NCBI GenBank assembly: GCA_963777955.1
Contig: CAVZSQ010000022.1
Coordinates: forward strand, 641,020 to 705,019
Source: Calditrichia bacterium
GTDB lineage: Bacteria; Calditrichota; Calditrichia; JAJRVZ01
Reading direction: 5' to 3'
Length of the DNA: 64,000 nucleotides
Positions 14,478-41,790 of this stretch are shown here, piece by piece (position 1 is the first letter of the stretch; every line of letters starts with the position of its first letter). The notes under the pieces were generated by a model. It was not told where the DNA came from. It saw nothing but the letters and a program-made list of their open reading frames with translations, and did no database searches. The position numbers were made by a program, and so were the translations under genes.

Positions 14478-14505
14478 CCAGACCATAATCCAGGTCAAGA
14501 AAGAG

Positions 14506-19297: not shown

Positions 19298-20947
19298 TCA
19301 AACCAGACAAACTTGATTTCTGCCGCTCTCTTTAGCATGATATAGCGCTTCGTCTGCTTTTTTAAGCAAGGTATCCTCATTTTTGCCGTCTTCAGGAAAA
19401 CTGGCAATACCAAGACTGATAGTTAATTCAATCCTGGCAGTCTCTTTTTTAGTGGGGAGTTTGGTGCTTTTAATCAGCTTTACTAATTTTTGAGCCAGAG
19501 ACCCGGCTTGAATTTTACTCAATTCGGGTAAAATTAATACAAATTCATCACCGCCATACCGGCTGAGGATATCAGATTTACGGATATTATCCTTCAATTT
19601 CTGAGCAATTATTTTTAAGGCCTGATCACCGTTGCGGTGCCCCTGGCTGTCATTGAATTGCTTGAAATTATCGATATCGATCATGGCGATAGAAAAAATC
19701 TTATGATGCCGCGAGCCGCGCAAAAGTTCCCGTTCGATCTGGGATTGAAAATAGCGGTAGTTAAATACTTCGGTAAGCGGATCGGTAATAGCCTGTTGTT
19801 CTTTGATGTGTAATAATTTTAAAGAACGATGATACAGGACCATATTTTCATAAATGATACCGGCGGTCTGTAAAAATGATTTTAAGACACGGATTTCATA
19901 TGTAGCTAAGGGATTGTCAGGCGCCCGGCGGTCAAGCAGGATCAGGAGTTTGTCCGGGAAATCATGATCAGTTTCTTTTTCAGCTTCCAGCGTTCCCGGT
20001 TCTTTTTTGACAGCTGCTTCACGCCGTTGGTCGAAACCCGATAAACAACCGATTATAAAGGCCTGCGAATCGAGAATTCTGGCTGTCTGATTCAAGGAGT
20101 GATTCAGAATTTCAGATTGGTTCTTTATCCACAGGATTTTCGATTCCGCTTCAAGATCGGTATAAAAGGAATGCTCCAGATGCAAGGTATGATTCGACCA
20201 TTGCTGCTCGCTGAATCCAGTCCAGGTGATCGGTTTCATTTCTTCGGTTTCAGGATGATATTCAAATAGAATAGCGCGATCCAGGTCAAATCCATCCACC
20301 AGCATTTCCGGAAGCAGATCCAGCATCTGTAACGGCGACGCCTGTACGCGTAAACTGTTGGCCAGGTTGTTCATGGTGAACAGGCGGCTGTTATAAACAG
20401 TGAGTTGCTCTTCCGAGCGTTTGAATTGTTCGTTAATTATCTTCAGATTTTGATTTAATTTCTCCAGTTCTTCAATCTTGGCCCTTAACTTTTCGACCAG
20501 CCGTACATTATATTCGGTCAGGATTTTTTTCTCGACATCCTGAGCCACCAATTCTTTACGGCCGTGCAAATACTCATTTATAAGTTTGATAAATTCACTG
20601 ACATTGATCGGCTTGGAAATAAAGCCGTCGCATCCTGCCGCCAGTGTGCGTTCTTTGGCCTGGGCTTCCGCATCAACAGAAAGGGCAATAATCGGGGTGT
20701 GCTGCAGATTTTTTATGGATTTTAATAAAGTTGTGACTTCATAACCGTTCATATCCGGCAGATTAATATCCATGATGATCAGATCAGGTTTTTCAGCAGT
20801 GGCCAGGCGAATTCCTTCCAGACCCCTGGAGGCAGAGAGAAAAGTATAGCCATGGATACGCAGGATATCGGCCATCATCTCGCGTGATTCCGGATCGTCT
20901 TCGATGTACAGCAGTTTTTTGTGTTCATTTTCCATTGTAAAAGTCAC
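19298..20947 (-). CDS. response regulator receiver - coiled coil - GGDEF diguanylate cyclase
   Basis: N-terminal REC domain (LLYIEDD...IIMDINLPDMNG), a central coiled-coil/GAF-like region, and a C-terminal GGDEF domain with RYGGDEF. Confidence 0.8.
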   Translation of the reverse strand: MTFTMENEHKKLLYIEDDPESREMMADILRIHGYTFLSASRGLEGIRLATAEKPDLIIMDINLPDMNGYEVTTLLKSIKNLQHTPIIALSVDAEAQAKERTLAAGCDGFISKPINVSEFIKLINEYLHGRKELVAQDVEKKILTEYNVRLVEKLRAKIEELEKLNQNLKIINEQFKRSEEQLTVYNSRLFTMNNLANSLRVQASPLQMLDLLPEMLVDGFDLDRAILFEYHPETEEMKPITWTGFSEQQWSNHTLHLEHSFYTDLEAESKILWIKNQSEILNHSLNQTARILDSQAFIIGCLSGFDQRREAAVKKEPGTLEAEKETDHDFPDKLLILLDRRAPDNPLATYEIRVLKSFLQTAGIIYENMVLYHRSLKLLHIKEQQAITDPLTEVFNYRYFQSQIERELLRGSRHHKIFSIAMIDIDNFKQFNDSQGHRNGDQALKIIAQKLKDNIRKSDILSRYGGDEFVLILPELSKIQAGSLAQKLVKLIKSTKLPTKKETARIELTISLGIASFPEDGKNEDTLLKKADEALYHAKESGRNQVCLV

Positions 20948-21040
20948 AAATATATATACTTATTCATATTTATTATCGGATAATTTTAGTCCAAATCAAG
21001 TCCGGAAATGAAAATAGCAGGAAGTCGATCAGTTTAATTA

Positions 21041-21140
21041 AGGGACAAAGGGACAAAGAAATAACCCATTAAGGGGTGGTATTAGGCGTAAAATGATAAG
21101 GCACTGGTATTGGTACAAAGGGACTCAGTGCTTAACATCA
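21041..21140. repeat. intergenic 8-bp-period repeat element (locus 2, short)
   Basis: agggacaaagggacaaag at 21041-21058, followed by ggcactg...acaaagggactcagtgc, an inverted GCACTG/CAGTGC pair around an ACAAAGGGACTCAG unit. Confidence 0.5.
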
Positions 21141-21158
21141 GGTGACTAGTTCTTCTTT

Positions 21159-23039
21159 TTATGTATACTTCACAATCACAATGGTCAAATCATCATTGAA
21201 TTCTTGCATCCGGGTAAAGTTGTGAACTTCTTCCAGAATCAGGTTCTTCAATTGATAACTGTTCAAATGCCCGTTTTTTTTAAGAATCTGCAATAATCTT
21301 TCTTCTCCGAATTCAATACCATCAAGATTAATTGCTTCGGTCAATCCATCGGTATAGCAGAATAATATGTCCCCTTTTTGAAAAGATTTGGTGATTTGAG
21401 TATAAATTTGATTCGGCAGATAACCTATTATTATACCGCCGCCCATTAATTTTTCCGTCGAACCATCCGCATGCAACAGGATCGGGGGATTATGTCCGGC
21501 ATTGGTATAGATCATTTTATTTTCCCGGGTTGACAGGATCAGGTATACCAGGGTGGCATAATTACCTTCGCTTACACTTTCTTCCAGCAAATTATTCAGA
21601 CGTGCAACTATCTCGCAGACGGTCAGGGCCGATTTCTTGAATGCCCGGAATCCGGCCAGTATCAAGGACATCATGATCGCGGCATGGGCACCTTTGCCGG
21701 ATACATCGCCAATAATAACGCCGAGCATCTGGTCATCCATGGGCACCAGATCAAACAGATCACCGCTGACCATTTTACTGGCCAGGTGGGCAAAAGAGAT
21801 ATTCAAATTGTTAAAAGAGGGCGGATGACTGGGCAGCAGGACTTTCTGGACTTTGCCGGCTTTCAGTAATTCATGCTCGAGGGACTGTTTGGTCAGAAAG
21901 ATTTCAAACTGTTTGGCATTGTTCAGGGCACTGGCAGCCTGCATGGCAAAAATATTCAATAGTTCCAGGGAGCGGCTGGTAAAATAACCCAGTTGATTGC
22001 TCTCCAGGCATAAGACACCGATTAATTCATTCTGAAAGAGCAACGGTAAAGCGACCTGGGAGAGTGTCTCCTGGCGGACCGGATAGTATTGAGCTGATTT
22101 TTTGACATCTTCTAATAATGATATTTGTTTATGCTGGGCCACCCAGCCGCAGGCACCCTGCCCGACCTTAAGCGTTAAATCGACATCCTGGTCGTAGCCC
22201 TTGCTGACCTTGCGGAGCAGATTCCTGGAATCAGGATCAAACAGAAAAATGACCCCGGCATCAAAGGATACAACCTCTGATAAGGCCTGTAACAAAAAAT
22301 TCAGGATTTTTTCCGTATTCAGGGAGGATAAAATTTGTTGGCTCACTTCGAAAAGTTTATTGATCTGCAGATTTTTCTGAAAAACATCCAGGTACAATAG
22401 CGTATTTTCCAGTATCTGACCGGACTTCGTGATTACTCTCCCGGCCAGGGCTGCTGTTGATTTTTTAGTAATAAAATCAAAATTACGGGCCTTGCTGAAA
22501 ACCAGGGCGACCTTGCGGTTCTTACCCGGGATGCACAAAACTGTATCCAGATTTTCCTTTTTAAACAGTGAAACCTGGGGGGATTGAATCAGCAGACCTT
22601 CGGCTGACTGCAGCAGTCGCTGGTCACTATCCGTTTTTATCTCCAGTAGCGGAGGAAGCAGCTCGGCAAGAGTTTCGGGATAAGACCGGTATCGCTGAAA
22701 GCGATTTTCATTATTTATGTAAAGGATCCAGGGACCGTGTGCTAAAATCCTCTCAAACACGCTCTGGTACTTATTCAGTAACTCCTGGTGGTCCACAATT
22801 TGATTGAGCTGAAAATTAAATTCCTGCAAAGTATTTTCAATAGTGGTTATATGTGGATAAAACCTGCGGCTGATCAGAGAGCGGACCGGCGGTTGTATCC
22901 GTGATTGCAAAATAAGAAAAATAACAATAATAACCGCCACTGCCAGAAATCCGGGTATATGCAGGATATCTGCTACCAGCAAATAAATGGATAAATAGAT
23001 ACCAAACTGAAAAAATTTTTCTAAGTAAGGACGTATCAA
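21159..23039 (-). CDS. membrane-anchored GAF-PP2C (SpoIIE/RsbU-family) serine phosphatase
   Basis: Two N-terminal TM helices, a GAF domain, and a C-terminal PPM domain (GDVSGKG, NAGHNPP and YTDGLTEA blocks). Confidence 0.8.
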   Translation of the reverse strand: MIRPYLEKFFQFGIYLSIYLLVADILHIPGFLAVAVIIVIFLILQSRIQPPVRSLISRRFYPHITTIENTLQEFNFQLNQIVDHQELLNKYQSVFERILAHGPWILYINNENRFQRYRSYPETLAELLPPLLEIKTDSDQRLLQSAEGLLIQSPQVSLFKKENLDTVLCIPGKNRKVALVFSKARNFDFITKKSTAALAGRVITKSGQILENTLLYLDVFQKNLQINKLFEVSQQILSSLNTEKILNFLLQALSEVVSFDAGVIFLFDPDSRNLLRKVSKGYDQDVDLTLKVGQGACGWVAQHKQISLLEDVKKSAQYYPVRQETLSQVALPLLFQNELIGVLCLESNQLGYFTSRSLELLNIFAMQAASALNNAKQFEIFLTKQSLEHELLKAGKVQKVLLPSHPPSFNNLNISFAHLASKMVSGDLFDLVPMDDQMLGVIIGDVSGKGAHAAIMMSLILAGFRAFKKSALTVCEIVARLNNLLEESVSEGNYATLVYLILSTRENKMIYTNAGHNPPILLHADGSTEKLMGGGIIIGYLPNQIYTQITKSFQKGDILFCYTDGLTEAINLDGIEFGEERLLQILKKNGHLNSYQLKNLILEEVHNFTRMQEFNDDLTIVIVKYT

Positions 23040-23138
23040 GGATGACTCCGCTGAATTTTAAATATATTGAGGTTACAGAATAAATTCAAGCCGGAATACC
23101 TGAAAGGTGTATCGAAAAATATAAATAAGTGGCGGATT

Positions 23139-24908
23139 CTAACTGAGGATTTGCAGGGAGAGCAGGGTGATATCATCGCTTTGCTGGGCGCCGGCGGTAT
23201 ATTTTTTTAATTCGCCGATAATATTTTCATTGATCTGCCGGACATTGAGAGCAGCACATTGATTGATTAAAAAATCTTTTAAGCGGGCCTCACCGAATTC
23301 CTGATCATTGACATTCATGGCTTCACTCACTCCATCGGTATACATCAGCAGGGTATCGCCGCTGCTCAGGGTGCAGTTGCCGATTTCATAAGGCATTTCC
23401 GGCAGCATGCCCAGGATGATCCCGCCCTCATGCAATTCGCGGATGGATCTGTCTTTATGGATCAGAAATGGCGGATTATGACCGGCGTTTACAAATTGAA
23501 AATTAAGGGTTTGAACATTTAATTGACCGTAAAAAAATGTTATATATTTTTCAGGATCGGTATTATTATAAATGAGGTTGTTGATTCGTGATACCAGTTT
23601 GTCCAGGGGATAATTTTCGCGGATCAGTGAATGCAGGCTGGCCTGTAAATTTGACATTAACAATGAAGCAGGCATTCCTTTCCCGGAAACGTCTGCTATG
23701 GTCAGTCCATATACCTGGTCATCTATGCGGATCACGTCATAGTAATCGCCGCCCACCTGTTTACTGGGGACATTGGTGCCATGAATTTTAATCAACTCCA
23801 GCTCGGGCATGGATTTGGGAAACAACCGGTTCTGGATTTTACGGGCCAGGTTCATTTCTTCTTCCAGTCTCTGTTTTTCCAGGGTCTCCTGGAACAGCCG
23901 GGCATTCTCCAGAGATATGATGGCCACGTTACCCAGGGTCTGTAGAAACTCCAGATCGCTGGTGCTGTATTGTTGCTTGTTGATTTTTTCACTAAGGAAA
24001 ATAAAACCCTTGGTCTCGTTCTGGATCTGCATAGGCACCACCACCCTGACTCCCCGTTCCTTCAGGGCTTTATCGAATTCGTTAAGATCCTCCCGCAAAT
24101 AAGGTTTAGCCAGCAGCGCACTTTTATCGCACAGAGTCTTACACAATTCACCTTCCCGCAGCGCGAAAGTATTGCCTTTGATCAGCGCGGCCCGGAAGGT
24201 ATCGGTTTCCTTCAGAGCTATCAGAAAATTGTTGACGGTGACCTGGCCCATCAGCGCATACGATAACAGTTTCAATATTTTTTCCTTTTCCAGGGTCAGG
24301 TTCAATTCTTTGCCGATCTCGAACAGGGTATTTAATTCCTGGATTTTATGATCAAGTTGCCGGTTCACTCTTTTTATTTCTTCAAAGCCCAGAGCGTTTT
24401 CAATAGAGGTAGCCGCAATATTGGCCAGCGAGTTCAAAAATTCCAGTTCCGCTTCCAGGAAAGGTTGGCCATTAATCTTATTGCAAAATCCCATTATGCC
24501 TAAAATGTCGGCCCGGCTGATAAAAGGGATCAGAATTTCTATTTTTAAATCATTGAAAAATGACAGCCAGGGGGTTTGTGCCGACAGGTCTTTCACAAAC
24601 ACAGGGTGATCCGGCACATCGGCTAGTTGCACGGATTTTCCGTGCAGTGAAAGCGATAATCCTTTTATGGTTTCAACAACGAATTCAGAGTTTTCCTTTT
24701 TTAAAAGGATCAGTCCTTTACCGAGCATCATTCTACCCATGGGTACCAGCAGGATATTGTTTAAGATGGACTGCAAATTTAAAGAAGAGTTCAGGGTCAG
24801 GCTGATTTCGATCAGAGCGGAAAGTTCCAGCAAGCGGCGGTCCACGCTGGAAACATCGTTCGGATCAACGGATTGAAGCGGTCGATCCTGGTCAGGAATA
24901 TCCGACAT
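23139..24908 (-). CDS. tandem-GAF PP2C (SpoIIE/RsbU-family) serine phosphatase
   Basis: Two GAF domains and a C-terminal PPM domain (ADVSGKG, NAGHNPPF, YTDGVSEA). Confidence 0.8.
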   Translation of the reverse strand: MSDIPDQDRPLQSVDPNDVSSVDRRLLELSALIEISLTLNSSLNLQSILNNILLVPMGRMMLGKGLILLKKENSEFVVETIKGLSLSLHGKSVQLADVPDHPVFVKDLSAQTPWLSFFNDLKIEILIPFISRADILGIMGFCNKINGQPFLEAELEFLNSLANIAATSIENALGFEEIKRVNRQLDHKIQELNTLFEIGKELNLTLEKEKILKLLSYALMGQVTVNNFLIALKETDTFRAALIKGNTFALREGELCKTLCDKSALLAKPYLREDLNEFDKALKERGVRVVVPMQIQNETKGFIFLSEKINKQQYSTSDLEFLQTLGNVAIISLENARLFQETLEKQRLEEEMNLARKIQNRLFPKSMPELELIKIHGTNVPSKQVGGDYYDVIRIDDQVYGLTIADVSGKGMPASLLMSNLQASLHSLIRENYPLDKLVSRINNLIYNNTDPEKYITFFYGQLNVQTLNFQFVNAGHNPPFLIHKDRSIRELHEGGIILGMLPEMPYEIGNCTLSSGDTLLMYTDGVSEAMNVNDQEFGEARLKDFLINQCAALNVRQINENIIGELKKYTAGAQQSDDITLLSLQILS

Positions 24909-24929
24909 GAGGTTGTACCTGAAGTTGTA

Positions 24930-25358
24930 TCAATTTAAATATTTGGTCAATTGTACCTGGTTTTTTATGCCGGGATTGAATTCATAGCGGACATCATCCA
25001 TGAGAGTTTTGATCAGATATATTCCTAATCCGCCATGCCGTGATTCCTTGATATAGGTTTTTAGATCAGGATCCTGAAGTTTGGAAAAATCAAAACCGCG
25101 ACCTTTGTCGGTGATAGTGATTTTTATTTTTTGGGGATCTATCTGAATGGATATGTCGATCAAACGGCTGGCATTAAATTTATATGCATGTTTAATGACA
25201 TTGGTGCAGGCTTCGTCAACCGCCAGGGCAATCTGTTCCTGTTTTTCATTATTAAAACCTGCTTTTTCGGCAACTCTGCGGATGAAATCTCTGATCAGAT
25301 ATAAATTATCGGTCACACTGGGTACTTTTAATTTAAATTTCTGGACTCTATCGCTCAT
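24930..25358 (-). CDS. anti-sigma regulatory factor serine kinase (RsbW/SpoIIAB-like HATPase_c)
   Basis: 142 aa with DEACTNVIKHAY (N box), GRGF and GGLGIYLI (G boxes). Confidence 0.8.
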   Translation of the reverse strand: MSDRVQKFKLKVPSVTDNLYLIRDFIRRVAEKAGFNNEKQEQIALAVDEACTNVIKHAYKFNASRLIDISIQIDPQKIKITITDKGRGFDFSKLQDPDLKTYIKESRHGGLGIYLIKTLMDDVRYEFNPGIKNQVQLTKYLN

Positions 25359-25408
25359 ACAATTTCCATTCGCTTTTCCTGTTGACGAAGATCCTGCGGC
25401 AATTCAGT

Positions 25409-25786
25409 TTAATCAGCATGGTATTTAGTTGCCGCCTCATTTTCTTCCTTGAAAATCTGATAGAGCGCTGGAAAACCCAGTAAATCGAATACTTTATATA
25501 CTTTGTCGGGTAAATTCGACAATTTTATATCCCCTTTATTATCCCGTATTTCTTCAATGAAACCCATGAATACGCCTAAACCTGCACTGCTGATATAATT
25601 TAGATCCGACATACTGACGATAATTTTATATCTGCGCTCGGTCAGGAGTTGTTGAATGGCCTGTTCGAACTTAGGTGCGGTATGTGCATCCAGGAAACCT
25701 TTCAGCCGCAAGATACTTACATCTGAACGGTCTTCACGTGCTACTTCAAAATTCTCCATTAAATTTCCTCCGCATCTATAGATCAC
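25409..25786 (-). CDS. STAS-domain anti-sigma-factor antagonist (RsbV/SpoIIAA-like)
   Basis: STAS fold with the ...DLNYISSAGLGVF... phosphorylatable serine region. The likely start is M at 25759 (MENFEV...). Confidence 0.8.
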   Translation of the reverse strand: MIYRCGGNLMENFEVAREDRSDVSILRLKGFLDAHTAPKFEQAIQQLLTERRYKIIVSMSDLNYISSAGLGVFMGFIEEIRDNKGDIKLSNLPDKVYKVFDLLGFPALYQIFKEENEAATKYHAD

Positions 25787-25904
25787 ATTTTAAAATATTT
25801 ACTCAAACACATTCCGGCAGCGATATTAAACCCTAATTTAAAATCAGAAACGAACTAATCCAATTTAAATATTTCTGAATTTCTACTATACGCAAATTGA
25901 CAAT

Positions 25905-27986
25905 TTAAGTTTTGACCAATATCAGAGTCAGATCATCAGCCAGGCTCTGTCCATCCAAAAATTTCAAAATCGCTTCCATGACAACCTGTTTAATCTCACT
26001 GGCGGACTTCACTGCACTTTCCTGTATCAGTGCACAAAGTCTATCCTCGCCGAATTCTTCTCCGCTTTTATTGCGTGCTTCAGATAAGCCATCGGTGAAA
26101 AAAACGAATATATCTCCGGAATTGAGCGAAACAGACTCTTCAACCAGGGTCTGGGTAAATATCTGCCCCTTTTCTAAACCAACACCGATGCCCTGCGGTT
26201 GTAACAACCTGACTTGCTGCTGCTGATTATTGTAATACAGCAGCGGGCAGTGACCGGCACGGGCAAAGGTAATTTTCCGGTGCTTACAATCCAGACTGGC
26301 CATCAACATGCTGATAAATGTTTTACGCTCCAGTGTTTCGTAAAGTATTTCATTGGTGCGAATCAGCAGTTCGCGCGGATTGTTAAATGTTTTACTCAAT
26401 GATTGTACGACGCCCTTGGCCTCAGCCATATAAAAAGCCGCTGAAGTGCCTTTGCCGCTGACATCACCGATAATGAAGCCGATATGACCGTCGGGCAGAT
26501 ATACAAAATCATAGTAATCCCCGCCAACCTCGTATGCCGTGATAGTCAGGCATTCAATATCAATACCGTCCAGTTCTGGTTTTTTTTGCGGCAGCAACCG
26601 TTGCTGCACTTCCCTGGCTATACGCAGTTCTTCCTTCAGGCGTTCCTGCTCCAGGGATTCTCTTAGTAACATGGCATTATCCAGAGCGATAACAGCCTGA
26701 CTGGCATAGGCTTCGACCATTGCCAGATCATCGGGATCAAAACCGTAAGCGTGTTTTTTAGCGGCGTACAGAATTCCCAGCGGTTGATTGTTGCTGGAAA
26801 TCAGCGGCACACCGATCAGCGAGTGAATCTCATTTTTCCATTTTTTAAAGTAAGCATACGGGTGCGTTCTGGTGATCTGATTGAGCAGTAACGATTTTTT
26901 ACTCTCGAAAATCTGCGACCTGAAATCCTGCTGGGCGGGTTGATTAAATGATTGGATTTCTTTTTCGTTTAAATTATAATGCGCTACAATTTCCAATTGT
27001 TTCGATTCTTCCCGGTACATTTCCAGCCAGGTATAATCGCTGCCGATGACATAGCGGATCATTTCAGTCACCAGTCGCACCAGTTTGTCAAAATTGAATT
27101 CGGTACTGATGGCGCGGCTCAGGTCGTGTAAAGAGCCCACTTCTTTCATTTTGCGGTCAAAGGCCCGGGCTGTGGGCAGGTGCAATAACAGATACAGACA
27201 GGAGAAAATTGTATAACTGACCAGTAAATACCAGGTAATGTTGGCAAAAACAGCCACGGCCAGGCTATGGGCCGGTACAGCGAAAACAAAGGCAAAATCA
27301 AATAAATAAAAAACCGCCCAGATTAAAAACAGTGAAATAAAGAAATAGTATATTTTTTCCTTGCGCGAAAGATAAGAAATCCAGGAATTGCGGAAAGAAA
27401 GCAGGAAAATAAATACCAGTACGCCGATAAGAAAGGCATTGTTATAAATTCCGGGCCCCTGGAATTCCAGGTTAAAATTTGCCTTGGTAATGACGGTGGC
27501 GATAACTGTGGCGGCAGATAACAATATAAAACCGTTCATCAGAAAAATGGTGCGTTGTGTACGGCGATAGTAGATCAGGTTTTTCAGAATGATCAACAGC
27601 GGTGTCATCAGTGCGATGGCAATCAGGGAGATAATATTGGCATAGAATACACTGCCGAGATTTTCGGGTAAGGGTGGAAAAGAGGCCGGAGAAAAACTGT
27701 GACTGAACAGGAGTTGGCAGATGATCACCAGGATATACAGCAGGCCGAGCAGATAGACAAAAATTCTGAGATTTTCCTGAATTGTTTTATCCTGAAAATT
27801 ATATTCGTTGGTGATCAGGCGGTAAAATAACAGGCCTACGGCAATCATCATTATTTCGGCCAGATAGTCAAGGGTTGGAATATTGACATCACTGTTGAGC
27901 TTGAAAATATCGTAGAGCAGCGGCAGTACGATTAGTACGATCATTAACGGTACTATGATTTTCAGCGGAGTTAAGGATATCTTCAT
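25905..27986 (-). CDS. polytopic membrane sensor - GAF - PP2C (SpoIIE/RsbU-family) serine phosphatase
   Basis: About 8 N-terminal TM helices, a GAF domain, and a PPM domain (GDVSGKG, RAGHCP, FTDGLSEA). Confidence 0.8.
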   Translation of the reverse strand: MKISLTPLKIIVPLMIVLIVLPLLYDIFKLNSDVNIPTLDYLAEIMMIAVGLLFYRLITNEYNFQDKTIQENLRIFVYLLGLLYILVIICQLLFSHSFSPASFPPLPENLGSVFYANIISLIAIALMTPLLIILKNLIYYRRTQRTIFLMNGFILLSAATVIATVITKANFNLEFQGPGIYNNAFLIGVLVFIFLLSFRNSWISYLSRKEKIYYFFISLFLIWAVFYLFDFAFVFAVPAHSLAVAVFANITWYLLVSYTIFSCLYLLLHLPTARAFDRKMKEVGSLHDLSRAISTEFNFDKLVRLVTEMIRYVIGSDYTWLEMYREESKQLEIVAHYNLNEKEIQSFNQPAQQDFRSQIFESKKSLLLNQITRTHPYAYFKKWKNEIHSLIGVPLISSNNQPLGILYAAKKHAYGFDPDDLAMVEAYASQAVIALDNAMLLRESLEQERLKEELRIAREVQQRLLPQKKPELDGIDIECLTITAYEVGGDYYDFVYLPDGHIGFIIGDVSGKGTSAAFYMAEAKGVVQSLSKTFNNPRELLIRTNEILYETLERKTFISMLMASLDCKHRKITFARAGHCPLLYYNNQQQQVRLLQPQGIGVGLEKGQIFTQTLVEESVSLNSGDIFVFFTDGLSEARNKSGEEFGEDRLCALIQESAVKSASEIKQVVMEAILKFLDGQSLADDLTLILVKT

Positions 27987-28633
27987 TCCACCATAACCTT
28001 GATCGGAAAGTTCAAATTAAAATTAGTACCCAGCAGCTGATGGTGCCGGTCATAATGCACCACCCTCCTGTTTCCTGAATCAGCCACTAAAAGCGTTCCG
28101 TCGTATCGATTTATTTCGAGATCATACGGATTATAGAATCCCATCAATTCTAATGGACGAGTTCCGGAGGCAGAAAGTTGCATAACAGCTGAATCAAAAT
28201 CATCAAGATTCACGATCCAGAGCACAGCACTGTCGGCTGCGCAGGAAATATCACCGGCGATTTTTAAACTGTCCAGGCATTGAAAATCTTCCCCAGCATC
28301 GGTCCGGGCGTAAATTCGATCCCAGCTCCCCGTATCATCGACCAGCCAGTAATGTTTCAGATCCGGACTTTCTGCGTACCTTTCCGGTTGTACCAGCGGA
28401 TCGTTTCGCACGGTGCTGATTTCAGATATATAATTTCCATTGTGGTCAAGTTGAATGATTTTGTTCAAGCCCTGGTCGACGATATCGATGTGGCCGGCTT
28501 TGCCGGAAATCGAAATCTGCACCGGTTTGTCCAGGATGGACGGTAGCAGTTGTACCTGAAATGTCAGGGCGTCGACACGATAGAGATAACCTGTACTGTC
28601 AATCACCCAGAAACAGGCTAACTTCCTGATCAT
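27983..28633 (-). CDS. NHL-repeat beta-propeller domain protein (possibly the C-terminal part of the upstream lipoprotein)
   Basis: NHL-type motifs (WVIDSTGYLYRVD, LLVADSGNRRVVHY). It overlaps the upstream ORF by 35 nt, which is consistent with a frameshift or with a genuine overlapping start. Confidence 0.55.
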   Translation of the reverse strand: MIRKLACFWVIDSTGYLYRVDALTFQVQLLPSILDKPVQISISGKAGHIDIVDQGLNKIIQLDHNGNYISEISTVRNDPLVQPERYAESPDLKHYWLVDDTGSWDRIYARTDAGEDFQCLDSLKIAGDISCAADSAVLWIVNLDDFDSAVMQLSASGTRPLELMGFYNPYDLEINRYDGTLLVADSGNRRVVHYDRHHQLLGTNFNLNFPIKVMVE

Positions 28634-29291
28634 AGAGCACTTTAAGGGGATGCGTGATCGTGGTAATTTGTGCCAGTGATTGCAGGGAAAGCATATCGAA
28701 ACCTTCGATGATTCCGTAGTTGTTGTAAATGATTAATCCTTTCTGCAGGTCTGTGGCGATGGCCAGATCGGTAGGCGGCCAGTTGGTATAATAATTAGCC
28801 ACGACGTGCTCGACATCGTAGGTAGTGTGTACCAGCTGGTAGCCCCACTTATCCACAATCCACACATCTCCGGGTCCCGGCACAATGGATACGGTGTTGG
28901 AGGGCTTACTCTCTAACCCTTCGCTGACCACAGTCAAATAATAACTGTAACGCTCCAGGTAGGATGCATTCTTGTCGATATATTGCCGGGACCCGGGCGG
29001 CAGATTGGCCTCAATTATTTTAAAGGTGCTATCCACCTCTTCCCAGCGACGGTGTATTCTAAAACCGGAATATCCTTCCAAATTTGGCTGATCCCAACTT
29101 AATTCCACTCCCTGTTCACTGGAAGTCACGTTTAGATTAAGATTGAGTTGCCCGTTTGGATCAAAAGGATTTTGTTTGTCCCGTTCAGCACAAGACCAGC
29201 TGAGGCAAGACAATACACAGATCATTAAAAGCCGATACCCGATAACACCGTTATAATTTTTACTTGTCATATGAGCGGAAAATAAATTCAT
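28599..29291 (-). CDS. lipoprotein with an Ig/Fn3-like domain (possibly the N-terminal part of the NHL protein)
   Basis: Signal peptide with lipobox (LSWSCAE), followed by a beta-rich domain. Confidence 0.5.
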   Translation of the reverse strand: MNLFSAHMTSKNYNGVIGYRLLMICVLSCLSWSCAERDKQNPFDPNGQLNLNLNVTSSEQGVELSWDQPNLEGYSGFRIHRRWEEVDSTFKIIEANLPPGSRQYIDKNASYLERYSYYLTVVSEGLESKPSNTVSIVPGPGDVWIVDKWGYQLVHTTYDVEHVVANYYTNWPPTDLAIATDLQKGLIIYNNYGIIEGFDMLSLQSLAQITTITHPLKVLYDQEVSLFLGD

Positions 29292-31277: not shown

Positions 31278-32276
31278 ATGAGCAAACAGGCAGGTCATAA
31301 TGATGTGGAGAGTATCCAGGAACTTACCCGGACATTCAAACTCATAAGAGCGGAAATTGCGAAAGTTATTGTGGGCCAGGATGAAGTAATCGAGCAACTG
31401 CTGATCTCCCTGTTCGCCCGGGGACATTGTCTGCTGATCGGTGTACCGGGACTGGCCAAAACCTTGTTGATAAAAACACTGGGTGAAATTCTGGATCTGC
31501 ATTTTTCACGTATTCAATTCACTCCGGATCTAATGCCGTCGGATATTACCGGAACCGAAATAATAGAAGAAGATCAATCCACAGGTAAGAAATTATTTAA
31601 ATTTGTCAGGGGTCCCATTTTCGCTAATATTATTCTGGCTGACGAAATCAACCGGACACCGCCCAAAACACAGGCAGCCTTACTGGAGGCCATGCAGGAA
31701 TACCGGGTAACCGCGGCGGGAGAAACCTACCCTTTACAGTTGCCGTTTTTTGTACTGGCGACCCAGAATCCGATAGAACAGGAGGGTACCTATCCGTTGC
31801 CGGAGGCTCAGCTGGACCGCTTTATGTTCAACCTCTGGCTGGATTATCCCACGGCCGATCAGGAAAAAACTATTGTGCAACAGACCACCGGGGCGATAAC
31901 CCGGACCGTTAATAAAATCCTTAACCGGGATCAAATATGTTTTTACCAGGATTTGCTGCGCCAGGTACCGGTGGCGGATAATGTGGTGGCCTATGCCGTA
32001 AAATTGGTTTCGGCCACGCGTCCGACCAATCCGGACGGCTTTAATTATATTAAAGAATGGATCCGCTGGGGTGCTGGTCCGCGTGCCTCGCAATACCTGA
32101 TTTTAGGTGCGAAAGTACGGGCCGCTTTACTGGGGAAAATTACACCGGATATTTCTGACGTCCAGATCATGGCATTGCCGGTTCTGCGGCATCGTATCGT
32201 TGTATCTTATAATGCCGAGGCAGAGAATGTATTTATCCATGATATCATCGGTCGTATCCTGAAAGATATTAAATAA
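31278..32276 (+). CDS. MoxR-family AAA+ ATPase
   Basis: Walker A GVPGLAKT, Walker B ILADEINR, and a MoxR-type C-terminus. It ends 2 nt before the protease ORF. Confidence 0.85.
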   Translation: MSKQAGHNDVESIQELTRTFKLIRAEIAKVIVGQDEVIEQLLISLFARGHCLLIGVPGLAKTLLIKTLGEILDLHFSRIQFTPDLMPSDITGTEIIEEDQSTGKKLFKFVRGPIFANIILADEINRTPPKTQAALLEAMQEYRVTAAGETYPLQLPFFVLATQNPIEQEGTYPLPEAQLDRFMFNLWLDYPTADQEKTIVQQTTGAITRTVNKILNRDQICFYQDLLRQVPVADNVVAYAVKLVSATRPTNPDGFNYIKEWIRWGAGPRASQYLILGAKVRAALLGKITPDISDVQIMALPVLRHRIVVSYNAEAENVFIHDIIGRILKDIK

Positions 32277-32322
32277 GTTGTATATTTTCGACAGACGGGT
32301 GTTAAAATTCTGTAATAGAAAT

Positions 32323-35300
32323 ATGAAAGTCGGCACTGCTAAAATAAAATCGATCTTAGTTTACAGCGGGACTTTCAGCGTTCTGTTCTGCTGGATAAAT
32401 GTACTCCAGGCGCAAAAACCTGCCAGTTATTCTGAGCGACTGGAACTCAACGCACAAGAACCAGCCAGGAATTATAAAACAGAGCACGGTAAAACAGACC
32501 GGACCAGCGGAGTGTTGCGTTATGTCTATCAGGAAAAATACAATACTGATCAACTAACCCCACAGGCTGTCGCCCGGGAGTATCTGCAGCTGCAGGGTCA
32601 AAGATTTGGAATTTCCTCTTTACAGCAGGAACTTCAATTTTTACGGGAGGTCAAAAGTCCGGCCGGACAGCAGTTGATTTATCAGCAGCTGTTTCAGGGT
32701 ATTCCCGTCTGTAATTCAGGGATTATACTGACCCTTGACTACCAAAACACTATCACTTTTGTCAGCAGTACCTTCCGGCCACAGTTGAAAGTCAAAGATC
32801 TTCGTGCTGCAATTTCAGCCGGGCAGGCTATACAATTCGCCGAAAAATATCTGTCCAGTGATTATTCAATTTCAGAAAAACCCAATGCAGAACTGATGAT
32901 TTTCAATCCGGTTGCGGCCGCAGGGATACTGGTTTACCGGATACAAATAATCATTCGCGAGCCCCGGGGTGACTGGGAACTGCTGGTGGATGCGGCAGAT
33001 GGCAGGGTATGGCAGGCCAGAAACCTGTTGCGTTTTCAAACAGGGGCTGACGGACGGGGATTAATCTGGGATCCGGATCCGCTGTCCAGTGCCGGGGTTT
33101 ACTATGGCGGATTTTTCATTGATAATAATGATGCGGATGCTGCTGTGCTTAATTCCCAGCGTGAATTCGTTATTTTGAATGATTTGAAATATGAAAATGG
33201 AAAGTATTATCTGGACGGACCATATGTTAAACTGGAAGATATCGATAATAATCCTGTAGATATATTTCCGGCTTTAAGCGACTCGAGCGGATTTAACTTT
33301 ACGCGGCATCAACAGGAATTCGAAGATGTAATGGTTTATTATAATCTCGATCGCGCCGGACGCTACCTGAATTATTTAGGATTTGAGATTGACAGTTTAC
33401 TGGCTTTTCGTGCCGATCCGCACGGTTTAAATGGCAGTGATAATTCTTATTACTCTCCTTTCGAAAATAATTGTGTTTTTGGCGAGGGGGGTGTTGATGA
33501 TGGTGAAGATGCAGACGTGATCTGGCATGAATTTGCGCATGCGATCATGGCTCAGATCCATTATCCGCTGCTGATGAATTATGAAGGTGAAACAGCCGCA
33601 CTGGAGGAGGGCAGTGCCGATTACTGGGCTGCCTCCAATTCACGGGCTGTATCTGATTTCGCCTGGGAGCAATTATATCTCTGGGATGCCGGCATCGGTT
33701 CAGCACAGAATGACCAGGGAATTTTCTGGTCGGGCCGGCGCTGTGACCTGAACTGGCATTATCCGGAAGATTATGATTTCGCTGCTGTCAAGGGACATAC
33801 CAACGGCCAGATCTGGTCGTCGGCTTTAATGCATATCTGGTCCGATCTTGGACGCGAAATCACCGACCGACTGTTCATCCAGGCAATATATCTGTGGGGG
33901 ACTTCACCCGATTTCCACGATGCCGCACAGGCTTTCGTCCAGGCCGACCGGCTTTTATACGGCGGTCAGCATCTTGCCGATATCGTCTACTGGTTCGGGT
34001 ATCACGGCTTGATCGATGCCGGGCAGACTTTTCCGGTGATAATTCACGAACCGCTTGCGGACAGTGAAGATTTAACCGGCCCTTATACCGTGCGGGTGGA
34101 AATTATTCCGGCCACAGCACCATTGGATACAAATAATCTGTGGCTGGTCTGGGGTTATAATGGAATATTTTCGGATTCTCTGCTGCTGACTGCTCTGGCA
34201 GAACCCAATGTATATAGGACAGAGATTCCCGGCGCGCAACAGGTAGTTTCGATCAATTATTATATTACGGCCGCCGATTCGGCAGGTTATTTTACGTCCG
34301 ACCCCGGTCGCGCTCCGCTGGAATATTATTCCTTCAAAGTCGGACCTGATATACAGGCGCCGGTAGTAGTACATACGCCGCTTAAAAACCAATCGTTCTG
34401 GCGCTGGCCTGCTATTTTGAATGTCTATGCCACCGATAATGTGGGTATTGCAGAAGTGCAGGTTTATTATTCTTTAAATCACTCCGCGGAAATGTACTCA
34501 GTCCAGCTTGCCCCGGCAGAGGTACCCGGCTGGTTCAGCGCTGCATTCGGTCTGGATACAAGCCAGGTCGAAATTGGCGATACGGTACATTATATGATCC
34601 AGGCCCGGGATAGATCGATTGCCGGAAACAGCACCGTCGCGCCTCTGAGCGGGTATTACAGTTTTGCAGTGACCGGCAGCGGCGCTGAAATTGTATTTGA
34701 TTTCGAAACTGATGATGGCGGGCTGGCAGCCGACGGCGATTGGCAATGGGGCAAGCCCGGCAGCGGTCCCCGGGCTGCACTAAGCGGCGAATATCTTTGG
34801 GCAACTAAACTGGACGGGAACTATAGCAATGGTCCGGGGCTTTCCACTCTGGCCCTGCCGGTCGTAGATTTGCAGGGCTTCGCGGTGGCTGCGCTGCAAT
34901 TGTGGCAGTGGTATGATATAAAAGCGAGCGGTGACGGCGGTAATGTTAAAGTATCGGCAGATGGTGGATTAACCTGGCAGGTTCTCCAGCCGTTATTCGG
35001 TTATGATGGGATGACGGATACGCTCTCCGGGAATCCGCTGCAGGGCGAGCAGGTATTTTTTGGCAACAGTGCCGGATGGGTAAAAACATTTTTTAATCTC
35101 GATTCCTATATTGAACAAAGTATACAGCTAAAATTTGAGTTCGCTGCTGATGCTGTTGAAACGGGATTCGGTTGGTATATTGATTCAGTTGCCATAGTGG
35201 AAAAATCGGCGAAATTATATCCGCCCGGAAGTATAACAGTTTTGGATAATCATGTTTATGTCAAATTAGGCTGGGATTACCTGAATATGCTTAAAACTCC

Positions 35301-35863
35301 GCCTGGATCAACTCCAATTTTAAAAGATTTATCAGGGCAGGCAGAGAATAATTCACTCCTGCCGGAAGAATTGATATTTAATGTATACCGGCAGGCAGAC
35401 CTTGGTAATTTCAATCTGATCGGGCAAACGGTGCAGTACTCTTATACAGATTCAGACTGTCGAACAAGGTCGGTCATATACATACTACCTTACCTCGCAG
35501 GCAGGTACTTTGGAGAGTGAACCGTCGGATACTATCCAGGTCACAGTTCAGGCCGTAATCGATGTGCGCAACGAACCTGCCGCCGCAGGTATGCTGCCGC
35601 AGGTTTATACCCTGGGGCAGAATTATCCAAATCCCTTCAATCCGCTCACAGTAATAAAGTATCAATTGCCTCGGTCTGATCAGGTTAAACTGAGTGTTTA
35701 TGATATTCTGGGTCGTGAACTGAAAGTATTGGTAAACAAAGAACAACAAGCCGGGTACTATCAAGTGGAGTTTGATGCTCGCAATCTGGCCAGCGGCATC
35801 TATATCTATAGCCTGCAGACAGGGAGATTTGTCTCGGTTAAAAAGATGATAGTGATAAGGTAA
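32323..35863 (+). CDS. secreted HExxH zinc metalloprotease (thermolysin/fungalysin-like active site) with a MAM-like domain and a T9SS C-terminal sorting domain; frameshift near 35470-35490
   Basis: Signal peptide after M at 32323. HEFAHAIM...(18 aa)...EEGSADYW resembles the M4/M36 HExxH...ExxxD arrangement. ORF 35510-35863 carries a Por/T9SS CTD (NYPNPFNPLTVIKYQLP...) and reads in frame with the upstream sequence (...YTYYLTSQAGTLESEPSD...) after a 1-nt shift. Confidence 0.65.
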
Positions 35864-41615: not shown

Positions 41616-41616
41616 T

Positions 41617-41790
41617 AAAAAGGGACAAAGAGACAAAGGGACAGAGGGACAAAGAAGGCACTGAGGCACTGAGCAAAAAGTACCTGAGTCCCTGAGTCCC
41701 TAGAGAAAAATACAGGACACGGGGTCATTCCCGCTAAACGGGTGCTTTGTTTGATCGTATATGGGCGGGAATCTCTGCTAATAAAGGACA
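41617..41790. repeat. intergenic 8-bp-period repeat element (locus 4)
   Basis: 41621-41656 agggacaaagagacaaagggacagagggacaaag. Then ggcactgaggcactgag. Then 41673-41704 tacctgagtccctgagtccctagag in inverted sense. The core is ATTCCCGCtaaacgggtgctttgtttgatcgtatatgGGCGGGAAT, a 9-bp stem. Confidence 0.65.

What the first reader, a model, noticed from the sequence alone, without database searches (positions are those of the whole stretch)
21159..27986. Partner-switching module with three paralogous GAF-PP2C input phosphatases but no cognate sigma factor
Three consecutive minus-strand genes encode SpoIIE/RsbU-type PP2C phosphatases. Each has a different sensory N-terminus: a 2-TM anchor plus GAF, tandem GAF, and an 8-TM module plus GAF. 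An RsbW-like HATPase kinase (24930-25358) and an RsbV-like STAS antagonist (25409-25786) sit between the second and third phosphatase. Canonical RsbW targets are SigB or SigF, but no sigma factor is encoded nearby. The kinase output may therefore be another target, and three sensor phosphatases may converge on one antagonist.
Basis: partly seen in the sequence, partly recalled or inferred. Interest (0 to 1): 0.55.

Follow-up and report, generated by a model that had tools for sequence, protein, structure and literature searches.

The report
Partner-switching cassette without linked sigma
A Calditrichota operon encodes a familiar bacterial phosphorylation switch (one small STAS protein, its kinase and three sensor phosphatases) with no sigma-factor gene beside it; 80 related species also lack a plausible partner sigma there, so the design is ordinary but its output is still unknown.

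Summary
Five intact minus-strand genes encode three paralogous GAF-PP2C phosphatases, one RsbV-like STAS protein and one RsbW-like kinase. All catalytic and phospho-acceptor motifs are present. No sigma-factor domain occurs anywhere in the 64-kb window.

Upstream is a lipoprotein gene that overlaps the first phosphatase and is frameshifted in this window. Downstream is a REC-GAF-GGDEF diguanylate cyclase that stays attached to the cluster throughout Calditrichota.

In 80 other species (Calditrichota, KSB1, Ignavibacteria, Bacteroidota, Acidobacteria) a core persists: large, mostly membrane-bound PP2C, then STAS, kinase and tandem-GAF PP2C. The phospho-loop YISSAGLGVFM is invariant in 78 species. 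None has a SigB/SigF-type sigma within 10 kb. Only Ignavibacteria carry an ECF sigma nearby, and it appears to have its own anti-sigma factor.

The system is therefore a real multi-input partner switch whose output is not encoded beside it. A sigma factor encoded elsewhere (about 35%) and the adjacent cyclase (about 20%) are the leading candidates. Sigma-unlinked Rsb-like modules, multi-phosphatase inputs, tandem-GAF phosphatases and STAS-to-cyclase outputs are all already documented. This is a new member of a known kind, of modest interest.

The parts
27983..29291 (-). Lipoprotein gene ('Lipo427': lipobox Cys, FN3-like region, NHL/beta-propeller-like C-terminus). In this window it is split into two ORFs (28599-29291 and 27983-28633) by a 1-nt insertion near 28618. 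Its stop overlaps the start of the first phosphatase by 4 nt. It is a probable extracytoplasmic co-sensor.
   Evidence: Relatives carry a single 403-433-aa gene at this position. The frameshift was located by alignment to L001. Orthologues have a signal peptide, a Cys and a conserved C-x-[DE]-R-x3-N-P-x-D-P motif. There is a weak NHL hit. The gene precedes the cassette in 21 of 80 species, all Calditrichota or KSB1-type loci.
25905..27986 (-). P1: membrane phosphatase with about 8 TM segments (residues 1-270), a GAF domain (about 285-445), a helical linker and a PP2C/SpoIIE domain (498-692).
   Evidence: Pfam, hydropathy and metal-binding motifs GGDYYD, GDVSGKG, TDG and DDLT. Orthologues sit two genes upstream of the kinase. 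A large PP2C occupies that position in 56 of 61 species, and 43 of them have the same TM module.
25409..25759 (-). STAS-only antagonist (RsbV/SpoIIAA-like, 116 aa). The predicted phospho-acceptor is Ser58 in YISS*AGLGVFM.
   Evidence: Pfam STAS 1.6e-18. TIGR00377 scores 76 bits, above its 53-bit cut-off. It aligns to RsbV, with its Ser58 opposite the Ser of the RsbV motif YMDSTGLGVF; that this RsbV residue is phospho-acceptor Ser56 is from my own knowledge. The loop is invariant in 78 species. It lies directly upstream of the kinase in 78 of 78 loci.
24930..25358 (-). RsbW-like GHKL serine kinase / anti-sigma-type protein (142 aa).
   Evidence: HATPase_c_2 6.4e-31. The best NCBIfam model is RsbW at 107 bits, below the 145-bit equivalog cut-off. 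6m36_A RsbW E 5.6e-22, 37% identity. N-box E49/N53/H57, G1 D84xG86 and G2 G110-L-G112 are invariant or nearly so.
23139..24908 (-). P2: soluble tandem-GAF PP2C phosphatase (589 aa), 21 nt after the kinase. It occupies the operon position that sigB or sigF holds in Bacillus.
   Evidence: Pfam. Both GAF halves align to the P3 GAF. A tandem-GAF PP2C lies directly downstream of the kinase in 66 of 70 species. Kinase-to-P2 gaps are 2-21 nt in public gene calls.
21159..23039 (-). P3: phosphatase with a 2-TM hairpin anchor, an uncharacterised region of about 180 aa, a GAF domain and a PP2C domain (626 aa). It is a Calditrichota-specific paralogue closest to P2.
   Evidence: Pfam, hydropathy, 33% identity to P2 over GAF and PP2C. 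Orthologues occur only in Calditrichota loci.
19298..20935 (-). REC, coiled coil, GAF-like domain and GGDEF diguanylate cyclase (545 aa from ATG 20935). It is the last gene of the same-strand cluster and is a candidate output or integration point.
   Evidence: Pfam Response_reg 3.5e-25 and GGDEF 2.3e-49. The AF2 model has pLDDT 86.6 with domains REC 1-123, helix 132-196, alpha/beta domain 201-345 and GGDEF 385-545. Foldseek hits include PleD, WspR, DgcR and Dcsbis. D56, K108, the RxxD I-site (R452, D455) and the GG(D/E)EF motif are conserved. Orthologues down to 44% identity always sit immediately after P3 or P2.

Best explanation
This is a genuine, intact Rsb/SpoIIA-type partner-switching phospho-switch. 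It is one lineage's elaboration of an ancient four-gene cassette: membrane GAF-PP2C, STAS, RsbW-like kinase, tandem-GAF PP2C. The cassette is conserved in Calditrichota, KSB1, Ignavibacteria, Bacteroidota and Acidobacteria, with no candidate partner sigma gene linked to it.

Working model, with every biochemical step inferred from homology:
1. The kinase phosphorylates STAS Ser58 and keeps it inactive.
2. P1 probably reads an envelope or membrane signal through its 8-TM module and the co-translated lipoprotein. P2 reads cytoplasmic ligands through two GAF domains. P3 is membrane-anchored with one GAF.
3. Each phosphatase is switched on through its GAF-to-PP2C helical linker and dephosphorylates STAS-P. 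Three inputs therefore converge on one antagonist.
4. Dephospho-STAS captures the kinase, which releases the kinase's other partner.

That partner is not encoded in the locus. My single most likely candidate is a sigma factor encoded elsewhere (sigma-A-type, FliA or an ECF), as proposed for Chlamydia RsbW and sigma-66. In Calditrichota the REC-GAF-GGDEF cyclase at the 3' end adds a c-di-GMP branch.

Confidence that this is a working partner switch with convergent phosphatases is about 0.8. Confidence in the trans-encoded sigma output is about 0.35, and that is the figure given as the confidence score.
For: Parts and motifs:
- All domains are present with strong scores.
- The kinase matches B. 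subtilis RsbW over its full length (E 5.6e-22, 37% identity) and has intact N, G1 and G2 boxes.
- The STAS protein aligns to RsbV and SpoIIAA with the acceptor Ser conserved. The loop is invariant in 78 species.
- All three PP2Cs keep the metal-binding Asp motifs.
- The window holds exactly one STAS, one kinase and three PP2Cs.

Operon-like layout:
- Gaps of 50 and 21 nt separate STAS, kinase and P2. The lipoprotein and P1 genes overlap by 4 nt.

Conservation:
- STAS is upstream of the kinase in 78 of 78 loci. A tandem-GAF PP2C is downstream in 66 of 70. A large PP2C is two genes upstream in 56 of 61.
- STAS and kinase are the most conserved genes of the neighbourhood. In L006 they are 82% and 70% identical, against serS 71% and adk 59%. 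Across phyla they are 53-64% and 47-56%. This fits a switch with many obligatory partners.

Literature:
- The linker-mediated activation mechanism and a tandem-GAF PPM (C. difficile RsbZ) acting on RsbV are documented (PMC12143880).
- A sigma-unlinked RsbW acting on the housekeeping sigma is reported for Chlamydia (PMC8256260).
Against: - No sigma gene lies in the 64-kb window.
- No group-1 or group-3 sigma lies within 10 kb in 80 related species. In canonical systems the target sigma is co-operonic with RsbW or SpoIIAB.
- The kinase scores below the RsbW and SpoIIAB equivalog cut-offs.
- From my own knowledge, not tested here: Bacteroidota that carry the cassette are not known to have SigB/SigF-type sigmas.
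- Relatives of the kinase are often fused to PP2C sensor phosphatases. In SypE and HsbR this architecture goes with STAS being the effector.
- No phosphorylation, binding or expression data exist for any member.
Confidence: 0.35

Rival explanations
1. c-di-GMP output. The co-located REC-GAF-GGDEF cyclase is the direct target of the switch. Dephospho-STAS (as with HsbA-HsbD) or the kinase binds and activates or localises the cyclase. The three phosphatases, plus a histidine-kinase input through REC, would then gate c-di-GMP synthesis.
For: - The cyclase is the last gene of the same-strand cluster.
- Orthologues down to 44% identity always follow P3, with a gap as short as 17 nt in L088. Where P3 is absent and the downstream genes differ (L009, L013), they follow P2.
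- The protein looks active: GG(D/E)EF, the RxxD I-site, and REC D56 and K108 are conserved, and the fold is confident.
- Precedents exist. The STAS protein HsbA binds the neighbouring cyclase HsbD (PMC5085249). SiaC activates SiaD (PDB 7e6g; PMC7647112).
Against: - Linkage is confined to Calditrichota (3-4 of 80 species loci), so the cyclase cannot be the ancestral output of the conserved core.
- The whole neighbourhood, including rlmN, adk and serS, is syntenic in most of these genomes. Adjacency is therefore weak evidence.
- The spacer is 223 nt in the window and about 480 nt in L001, which suggests the cyclase has its own promoter.
- The cyclase has its own REC input.
- NCBIfam scores for SiaD and SiaA are far below their cut-offs.
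Confidence: 0.2
2. STAS is the effector for some other non-sigma target encoded elsewhere, as with Vibrio SypA or Bordetella BtrV. The kinase and the phosphatases only write and erase Ser58 phosphate, and the kinase sequesters nothing.
For: - The absence of a linked candidate partner sigma is conserved across 80 species.
- Close relatives of the kinase occur fused to sensor PP2Cs, and sometimes to several STAS domains. They behave as a single writer/eraser unit.
- STAS is extremely conserved across phyla.
- Non-canonical STAS outputs are reviewed in PMC8256260.
Against: - All strongly conserved STAS blocks (GxLDxxTA, YISSAGLG, KGD-I, FDLLGF) coincide with the generic motifs that RsbV and SpoIIAA use to contact their kinase. 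No extra conserved surface is evident.
- No candidate target is identified.
Confidence: 0.2
3. RsbT-RsbU-like logic. The partner that the kinase releases or activates is the tandem-GAF phosphatase P2, which sits in the 'sigma slot' directly after the kinase. This would make the four-gene core a self-contained feedback switch.
For: - P2 follows the kinase in 66 of 70 species, with gaps of 2-21 nt.
- Kinase-PP2C fusions recur.
- RsbT activates RsbU by binding it (PMC12143880).
Against: - The kinase matches RsbW, not RsbT. No RsbT model or structure is among its hits.
- There is no RsbR-type co-antagonist and no RsbU_N domain in P2.
- Gene adjacency of a kinase and a phosphatase that share a substrate needs no further explanation.
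Confidence: 0.08
4. The cluster is decaying or non-functional in this organism, or the genes are merely neighbours without a shared pathway.
For: At least six genes in the window are split by frameshifts, including the lipoprotein gene at the head of the cluster.
Against: All five switch genes and the cyclase are full-length, with every catalytic motif intact. They are collinear with orthologues.
Confidence: 0.02

Closest known systems
Bacillus subtilis RsbU/RsbP - RsbV - RsbW - sigma-B (and SpoIIE - SpoIIAA - SpoIIAB - sigma-F)
   Same: - STAS antagonist with the same phospho-Ser loop.
- A small GHKL kinase 37% identical to RsbW.
- SpoIIE-family PP2C phosphatases.
- More than one sensor phosphatase feeding one STAS (RsbU and RsbP).
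- The gene order PP2C - STAS - kinase - X - PP2C mirrors rsbU-rsbV-rsbW-sigB-rsbX.

   Different: - No sigma gene follows the kinase. A tandem-GAF phosphatase sits there instead, in 66 of 70 species.
- The kinase is below the RsbW equivalog cut-off.
- The sensory modules are GAF and multi-TM rather than RsbU_N or PAS.
Clostridioides difficile RsbZ (tandem-GAF PPM phosphatase of the sigma-B pathway)
   Same: P2 has the same architecture: two N-terminal GAF domains, a helical linker and a PPM domain. The activation mechanism is presumably the same, through a coiled-coil linker (PMC12143880).
   Different: RsbZ acts in a sigB-linked system. P2 belongs to a sigma-unlinked cassette and is accompanied by membrane-bound paralogues.
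Chlamydia trachomatis RsbU - RsbV1/V2 - RsbW
   Same: A partner switch in a genome without SigB, with a membrane sensor phosphatase. The proposed target is encoded elsewhere (the housekeeping sigma-66) (PMC8256260).
   Different: Chlamydia has two STAS proteins and one phosphatase with a periplasmic domain. Here there is one STAS and three GAF phosphatases. The target here is unknown.
Pseudomonas aeruginosa HptB - HsbR - HsbA - HsbD
   Same: A STAS antagonist whose gene cluster lies next to a diguanylate cyclase gene. The STAS protein binds the cyclase (PMC5085249).
   Different: - HsbR is a single REC-PP2C-kinase protein controlled by an Hpt relay.
- HsbD is a different cyclase architecture.
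- Here the kinase and phosphatases are separate proteins, no Hpt is present, and no interaction has been tested.
Pseudomonas aeruginosa SiaABCD
   Same: A PP2C phosphatase, a kinase and a small phospho-protein control a co-encoded diguanylate cyclase (PMC7647112; SiaD-SiaC complex 7e6g).
   Different: From my own knowledge, SiaC is not a Pfam STAS protein. The NCBIfam SiaA and SiaD models score far below their cut-offs (38 against 700 bits and 154 against 290 bits).
Stressosome module RsbR - RsbS - RsbT (with variable outputs, including GGDEF)
   Same: The STAS - GHKL kinase - PP2C gene order. Outputs in other bacteria can be diguanylate cyclases (MtG, PMC12143880).
   Different: There is no RsbR-type sensor-STAS protein. 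The kinase and STAS match RsbW and RsbV rather than RsbT and RsbS.

Membership tests
Rsb/SpoIIA-type partner-switching system | STAS-only antagonist with a conserved phosphorylatable Ser in the DS[ST]G-like loop | tested here: met
   Pfam STAS 1.6e-18. TIGR00377 scores 76 bits against a 53-bit cut-off. Ser58 aligns to the Ser of the RsbV motif YMDSTGLGVF, which from my own knowledge is phospho-acceptor Ser56. The loop is invariant in 78 species.
Rsb/SpoIIA-type partner-switching system | Small GHKL (HATPase_c_2) serine kinase with N, G1 and G2 boxes | tested here: met
   HATPase_c_2 6.4e-31. E49/N53/H57, D84xG86 and G110-L-G112 are conserved. Full-length match to RsbW 6m36_A.
Rsb/SpoIIA-type partner-switching system | SpoIIE/PPM-family phosphatase(s) with metal-binding Asp residues | tested here: met
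   Three SpoIIE domains at E 1e-45 to 1e-49. The motifs GGDYYD (VSGDLFD in P3), GDVSGKG, TDG and DDxT are present in all three.
Rsb/SpoIIA-type partner-switching system | A cognate sigma factor sequestered by the kinase, normally encoded in the same operon | tested here: not met
   No Sigma70 domain in the 64-kb window. No group-1 or group-3 sigma within 10 kb in 80 species. A sigma elsewhere in the genome could not be tested, because the source contig could not be retrieved.
Rsb/SpoIIA-type partner-switching system | Demonstrated phosphorylation and dephosphorylation of STAS, and mutually exclusive binding of the kinase | not testable with these tools
   This needs biochemistry or multimer structure prediction. 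Only single-chain prediction was available.
RsbW (anti-sigma-B) equivalog, NCBIfam PRK04069 / TIGR01924 | Score at or above the curated equivalog cut-off | tested here: not met
   107.3 bits against 145, and 98.8 against 155. RsbW is the best-matching family, but the protein is not an equivalog.
SpoIIAB (anti-sigma-F) equivalog, TIGR01925 | Score at or above the curated cut-off | tested here: not met
   65.9 bits against 135.
Stressosome RsbR-RsbS-RsbT module | An RsbR-type protein (N-terminal sensor plus C-terminal STAS) together with an RsbS STAS protein and an RsbT kinase | tested here: not met
   Only one STAS-only protein is present in the window. The kinase hits RsbW and SpoIIAB models and structures, none of RsbT.
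HsbR-HsbA-HsbD type (STAS controls a diguanylate cyclase) | A diguanylate cyclase gene adjacent to the partner-switch genes | tested here: met
   A REC-GAF-GGDEF gene lies at 19298-20935 on the same strand. The position is conserved in Calditrichota.
HsbR-HsbA-HsbD type (STAS controls a diguanylate cyclase) | A tri-domain REC-PP2C-kinase protein (HsbR) and an Hpt relay | tested here: not met
   The kinase and phosphatases are separate proteins. No Hpt domain is found in the window.
HsbR-HsbA-HsbD type (STAS controls a diguanylate cyclase) | Physical STAS-cyclase interaction | not testable with these tools
   This needs two-hybrid, pull-down or multimer modelling.
SiaABCD | SiaA and SiaD equivalog scores | tested here: not met
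   SiaA 38.5 and 31.9 bits against 700. SiaD 153.6 bits against 290.
RsbZ-type tandem-GAF PPM phosphatase | Two N-terminal GAF domains, a helical linker and a PPM domain | tested here: met
   P2 residues 27-189 and 210-391 both align to a GAF domain, followed by a SpoIIE domain at 397-586. The architecture is described for RsbZ in PMC12143880.

The most novel reading that the evidence does not exclude
The four-gene core (membrane GAF-PP2C, STAS, RsbW-like kinase, tandem-GAF PP2C) would be a sigma-independent phospho-switch of the FCB and Acidobacteria lineages. Its read-out would be protein-protein control of a non-sigma effector. In Calditrichota this would be direct gating of the co-transcribed REC-GAF-GGDEF cyclase by dephospho-STAS or by the kinase. 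Three envelope or metabolite inputs and one two-component input would then be integrated into c-di-GMP. A related version has the kinase's sequestered partner being the phosphatase that occupies the 'sigma slot'.
Probability: 0.25. Interest if true: 0.55.

Novelty: new member of a known kind. Interest (0 to 1): 0.3.

Why it matters
The result identifies a very strongly conserved signalling cassette in poorly studied phyla (Calditrichota, KSB1, Ignavibacteria, Bacteroidota, Acidobacteria). Its STAS phospho-loop is invariant in 78 species. Its output is not a co-encoded sigma factor.

This gives a clean comparative handle on an old question: what do Rsb-like modules do in bacteria that lack SigB or SigF? 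In Calditrichota it nominates one testable candidate, the neighbouring diguanylate cyclase.

For this particular window it mainly corrects the annotation. The unit runs from the lipoprotein gene to the cyclase. Only the third phosphatase is lineage-specific. The design principles are already known, so the value is incremental.

Tried and rejected
1. An ECF sigma as the missing target.
- In 15 of 80 loci, all Ignavibacteria or Melioribacter types, an RpoE-like ECF sigma lies just upstream of the cassette (Pfam-confirmed).
- The next gene overlaps it by 4 nt and has a borderline N-terminal zf-HC2 anti-sigma motif. The ECF therefore probably has its own anti-sigma factor.
- RsbW-type proteins have never been reported to bind ECFs (PMC7406223).
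- I kept this only as a side note.

2. A domain swap between the REC-GGDEF cyclase (Calditrichota) and the REC-PP2C found at the same position in KSB1-type loci.
- The REC domains are not specially related: E about 1e-7, against 1e-14 for unrelated stand-alone RECs. Rejected.

3. A stressosome or RsbT reading. Rejected on the profile and structure hits.

4. A 'second partner switch' divergent from the Ignavibacteria ECF. The neighbouring genes are purA and a histidine kinase, and only an extra STAS gene is real.

5. Regulatory RNA or a c-di-GMP riboswitch. There are no Rfam hits and no tRNAs in the window.

6. Promoter and terminator scans, and a TAnnTTTG motif scan of the spacers. These were uninformative, with counts at or below shuffled expectation.

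7. Retrieving the source contig of about 1 Mb for a sigma inventory. Exact look-ups failed or returned only a 1.7-kb contig.

8. The Caldithrix abyssi genome paper has no information on sigma factors. Literature searches for this cassette in Bacteroidetes or Ignavibacteria found nothing.

They were used only to fish for candidates, and one of the hits (the L043 ECF) was then verified with Pfam.

Full report
**Observation**

The minus strand between 21159 and 27986 carries exactly the five ORFs described.
- Pfam gives SpoIIE/PP2C domains at E 1e-45 to 1e-49, plus GAF domains, in the 693-, 589- and 626-aa proteins.
- It gives STAS (1.6e-18) in the 125-aa ORF and HATPase_c_2 (6.4e-31) in the 142-aa ORF.
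- A hydropathy scan finds about eight hydrophobic segments in the first 270 residues of the 693-aa protein (P1). It finds a two-helix hairpin at residues 9-45 of the 626-aa protein (P3) and none in the 589-aa protein (P2).
- P2 has two GAF-like halves, both of which align to the GAF of P3.
- The three phosphatases are 27-33% identical over GAF plus PP2C, so they are true paralogues. All keep the metal-binding Asp motifs.
- The STAS gene more likely starts at ATG 25759. The 116-aa form is the one on record and matches all orthologues.

**Is the kinase RsbW-like?**

Yes.
- Its best NCBIfam models are the two RsbW equivalogs, at 107 and 99 bits. Both are below their cut-offs of 145 and 155. SpoIIAB comes next.
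- Its best solved relative is B. subtilis RsbW, aligned end to end at E 5.6e-22 and 37% identity.
- The N, G1 and G2 ATP-binding boxes are invariant or nearly so in a 28-sequence alignment.
- The STAS protein aligns to RsbV and SpoIIAA, with the acceptor Ser conserved.

**No sigma nearby**

- None of about 59 ORFs in the 64-kb window has a Sigma70 domain.
- A six-frame scan with four sigma seeds finds nothing at E<=1. The same scan recovers exactly one STAS, one kinase, three PP2Cs and one GGDEF.

- Upstream, two ORFs (28599-29291 and 27983-28633) are the halves of one lipoprotein gene. It is intact (403-433 aa) in relatives and is broken here by a 1-nt insertion near 28618.
- Its stop overlaps the P1 start by 4 nt. 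Its orthologues have a lipobox Cys followed by a conserved C-x-[DE]-R-x3-N-P-x-D-P motif.
- Downstream, on the same strand and followed by convergent genes, lies a 545-aa REC-GGDEF protein.
- An AlphaFold2 model of it (pLDDT 86.6) shows a REC domain, a 65-residue helix, a GAF-like alpha/beta domain, a second helix and a GGDEF domain.
- Its nearest solved folds are PleD, WspR, DgcR and Dcsbis. The phospho-acceptor Asp56, Lys108, the RxxD I-site and the GG(D/E)EF motif are conserved among 55 homologues.

**Organism**

- The closest homologues of the kinase and the cyclase are all from Calditrichia or Calditrichales MAGs.
- The window also contains T9SS sorting domains and a Bat-type operon typical of the FCB group.
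- A 100%-identical cyclase sits on a 1,023,020-bp public contig, but its DNA could not be retrieved.

**Comparative genomics**

One scan of species-representative genomes, using a kinase alignment, returned 80 loci. They come from Calditrichota, KSB1, Ignavibacteria/Melioribacter, Bacteroidota and Acidobacteria. I called ORFs and annotated them with the window's own domains.

The conserved core:
- STAS lies directly upstream of the kinase in 78 of 78 loci.
- A tandem-GAF PP2C lies directly downstream in 66 of 70.
- A large PP2C lies two genes upstream in 56 of 61. In 43 of these it carries the same multi-TM module as P1.
- P1 and P2 therefore have orthologues in every phylum sampled.
- P3 has orthologues only in Calditrichota, and its closest paralogue is P2.

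Lineage-specific additions:
- Other lineages add different extras: an 800-aa multi-TM PP2C, a REC-PP2C, or an 850-aa PDZ/TM-GAF-PP2C.
- Thirty of 80 loci have three to five phosphatases near the kinase.

Conservation:
- STAS and kinase are the most conserved genes of the neighbourhood. Against L006 they are 82% and 70% identical, compared with 71% for serS and 59% for adk. Across phyla they are 53-64% and 47-56%.
- The STAS loop L-x-Y-I-S-S-A-G-L-G-V-F-M is invariant in all 78 species.

**Sigma factors near the cassette**

- No group-1 or group-3 sigma lies within 10 kb in any locus.
- Fifteen loci, all of Ignavibacteria type, have an RpoE-like ECF sigma just upstream.
- The gene after it overlaps it by 4 nt and has a borderline zf-HC2 anti-sigma motif. 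This looks like a self-contained ECF/anti-sigma pair.
- RsbW-type proteins have not been reported to bind ECFs (PMC7406223).
- The absence of a linked partner sigma is therefore a property of the whole cassette family, not a peculiarity of this window.

**The cyclase**

- Its orthologues (44-100% identity, all Calditrichota) always sit immediately after P3, with a gap as short as 17 nt.
- In L009 and L013, P3 is absent and the downstream genes differ. There the cyclase sits immediately after P2.
- This supports membership of the unit in Calditrichota.
- Three observations weaken the case. Linkage is confined to that phylum. Most of these genomes are also syntenic for the flanking housekeeping genes. 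The spacer is 223 nt here and about 480 nt in L001.
- Its REC domain is not specially related to the REC of the REC-PP2C that occupies the same slot in KSB1-type loci.

**Mechanism**

Shown directly:
- Gene content, motifs, order and conservation.

Inferred from the RsbV/RsbW/RsbU and SpoIIAA/AB/E paradigm:
- The kinase phosphorylates Ser58.
- The three PP2Cs dephosphorylate it when their sensor modules are triggered. A GAF-to-PP2C helical linker is present in all three. Linker-mediated dimerisation is proposed as a general mechanism for PPM phosphatases, including the tandem-GAF RsbZ (PMC12143880).
- Dephospho-STAS then titrates the kinase.

The output is unresolved. My estimates are:
- a sigma factor encoded elsewhere, about 0.35;
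- the neighbouring cyclase, about 0.2;
- another non-sigma target of STAS, about 0.2;
- an RsbT/RsbU-like kinase-P2 relationship, about 0.08.

A Rosetta-stone check showed that 38-46%-identical kinase domains are often fused to sCache/HAMP-PP2C proteins, some of which also carry HTH and triple STAS domains. This fits a writer/eraser unit but does not name a target.

**Comparison with known systems**

Every individual feature has a precedent.
- Sigma-unlinked partner switches are known in Chlamydia (sigma-66), Bordetella (T3SS) and Vibrio (PMC8256260).
- STAS-to-cyclase coupling is known for HsbA-HsbD (PMC5085249) and for SiaC-SiaD (7e6g; PMC7647112).
- Multiple phosphatases act on one STAS in B. 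subtilis (RsbU and RsbP).
- A tandem-GAF PPM is known (RsbZ).
- Membership tests: the module meets the three structural criteria of a partner-switching system. It fails the 'co-encoded cognate sigma' criterion and the RsbW, SpoIIAB, SiaA and SiaD equivalog cut-offs.

**Verdict**

- The finding is a new member of the known class of sigma-unlinked Rsb-like partner switches.
- The useful additions are a corrected extent (lipoprotein gene to cyclase) and the recognition of an ancient, very conserved four-gene core.
- Interest is about 0.3.
- The most novel reading not excluded is a sigma-independent switch that gates c-di-GMP or its own phosphatase. I give it a probability of about 0.25.

Noticed in passing
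window 54809-56264; 11104-12977; 13353-15858; 32278-35863; 61294-62596; 27983-29291: At least six genes are each split into two adjacent or overlapping ORFs, although relatives carry single genes. They are RtcB, a CapD-like Polysacc_synt_2 gene, an 810-aa Glycos_transf_4/Bac_transf gene, an InhA-like protease with a T9SS tail, an AAA_14/DUF4143 ATPase, and the lipoprotein gene heading the cluster. This density suggests indel errors in the assembly rather than six pseudogenes. The one site examined (near 28618) is not in a homopolymer.
   Followed up: partly
L043 4777-7446; likewise L047, L055, L061-63, L066-67, L071, L074, L079-82: In Ignavibacteria/Melioribacter-type genomes the cassette is preceded by an RpoE-like ECF sigma. 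In most of them a translationally coupled membrane protein follows the ECF and has a borderline zf-HC2 motif. In most of these loci, though not in L063, a second STAS-only gene is transcribed divergently. The ECF may transcribe the cassette. It is unlikely to be the kinase's target.
   Followed up: partly
proteins P0166, P0193, P0199, P0228, P0232, P0233, P0237, P0238: Close relatives of the kinase (38-46% identity) occur as N-terminal domains of large fusion proteins. The architecture is kinase, sCache, HAMP and PP2C, sometimes followed by an HTH domain and three STAS domains. These are all-in-one partner switches.
   Followed up: partly
window 20936-21158 (spacer between P3 and the cyclase): The spacer contains three copies of a CCCTTTGT motif (once as GTCCCTTTGTACC, then GTCCCTTTGTCCCTT). 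A TAnnTTTG motif lies 11 nt before the cyclase ATG. The 88-90%-identical relative L001 has about 270 extra bases here.
   Followed up: no
window 38825-53251: A Bat/aerotolerance-type operon (MoxR, DUF58, BatA-like VWA, VWA, TPR, BatD x3) is interrupted by an ABC_tran / ABC-2 permease / ABC_transp_aux / DUF4340 transporter set at 43843-48515. From my own knowledge this set resembles GldA/F/G. A second MoxR gene (31278-32276) sits divergent from rlmN, next to the secreted protease.
   Followed up: no
L022, L030, L031, L033, L039 (about 13.5-14.9 kb in each locus): In KSB1-type loci the REC-PP2C gene after P2 is followed by a conserved protein of about 450-470 aa. Its sequence in L022 looks radical-SAM-like, but this was not profile-tested. 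In some loci another GAF-PP2C follows, giving up to five phosphatases around one STAS-kinase pair.
   Followed up: no
window 58001-60000: GC skew jumps to 0.27 over the gene for an 853-aa Rax2-like beta-propeller protein with a T9SS sorting domain (58625-61186).
   Followed up: no
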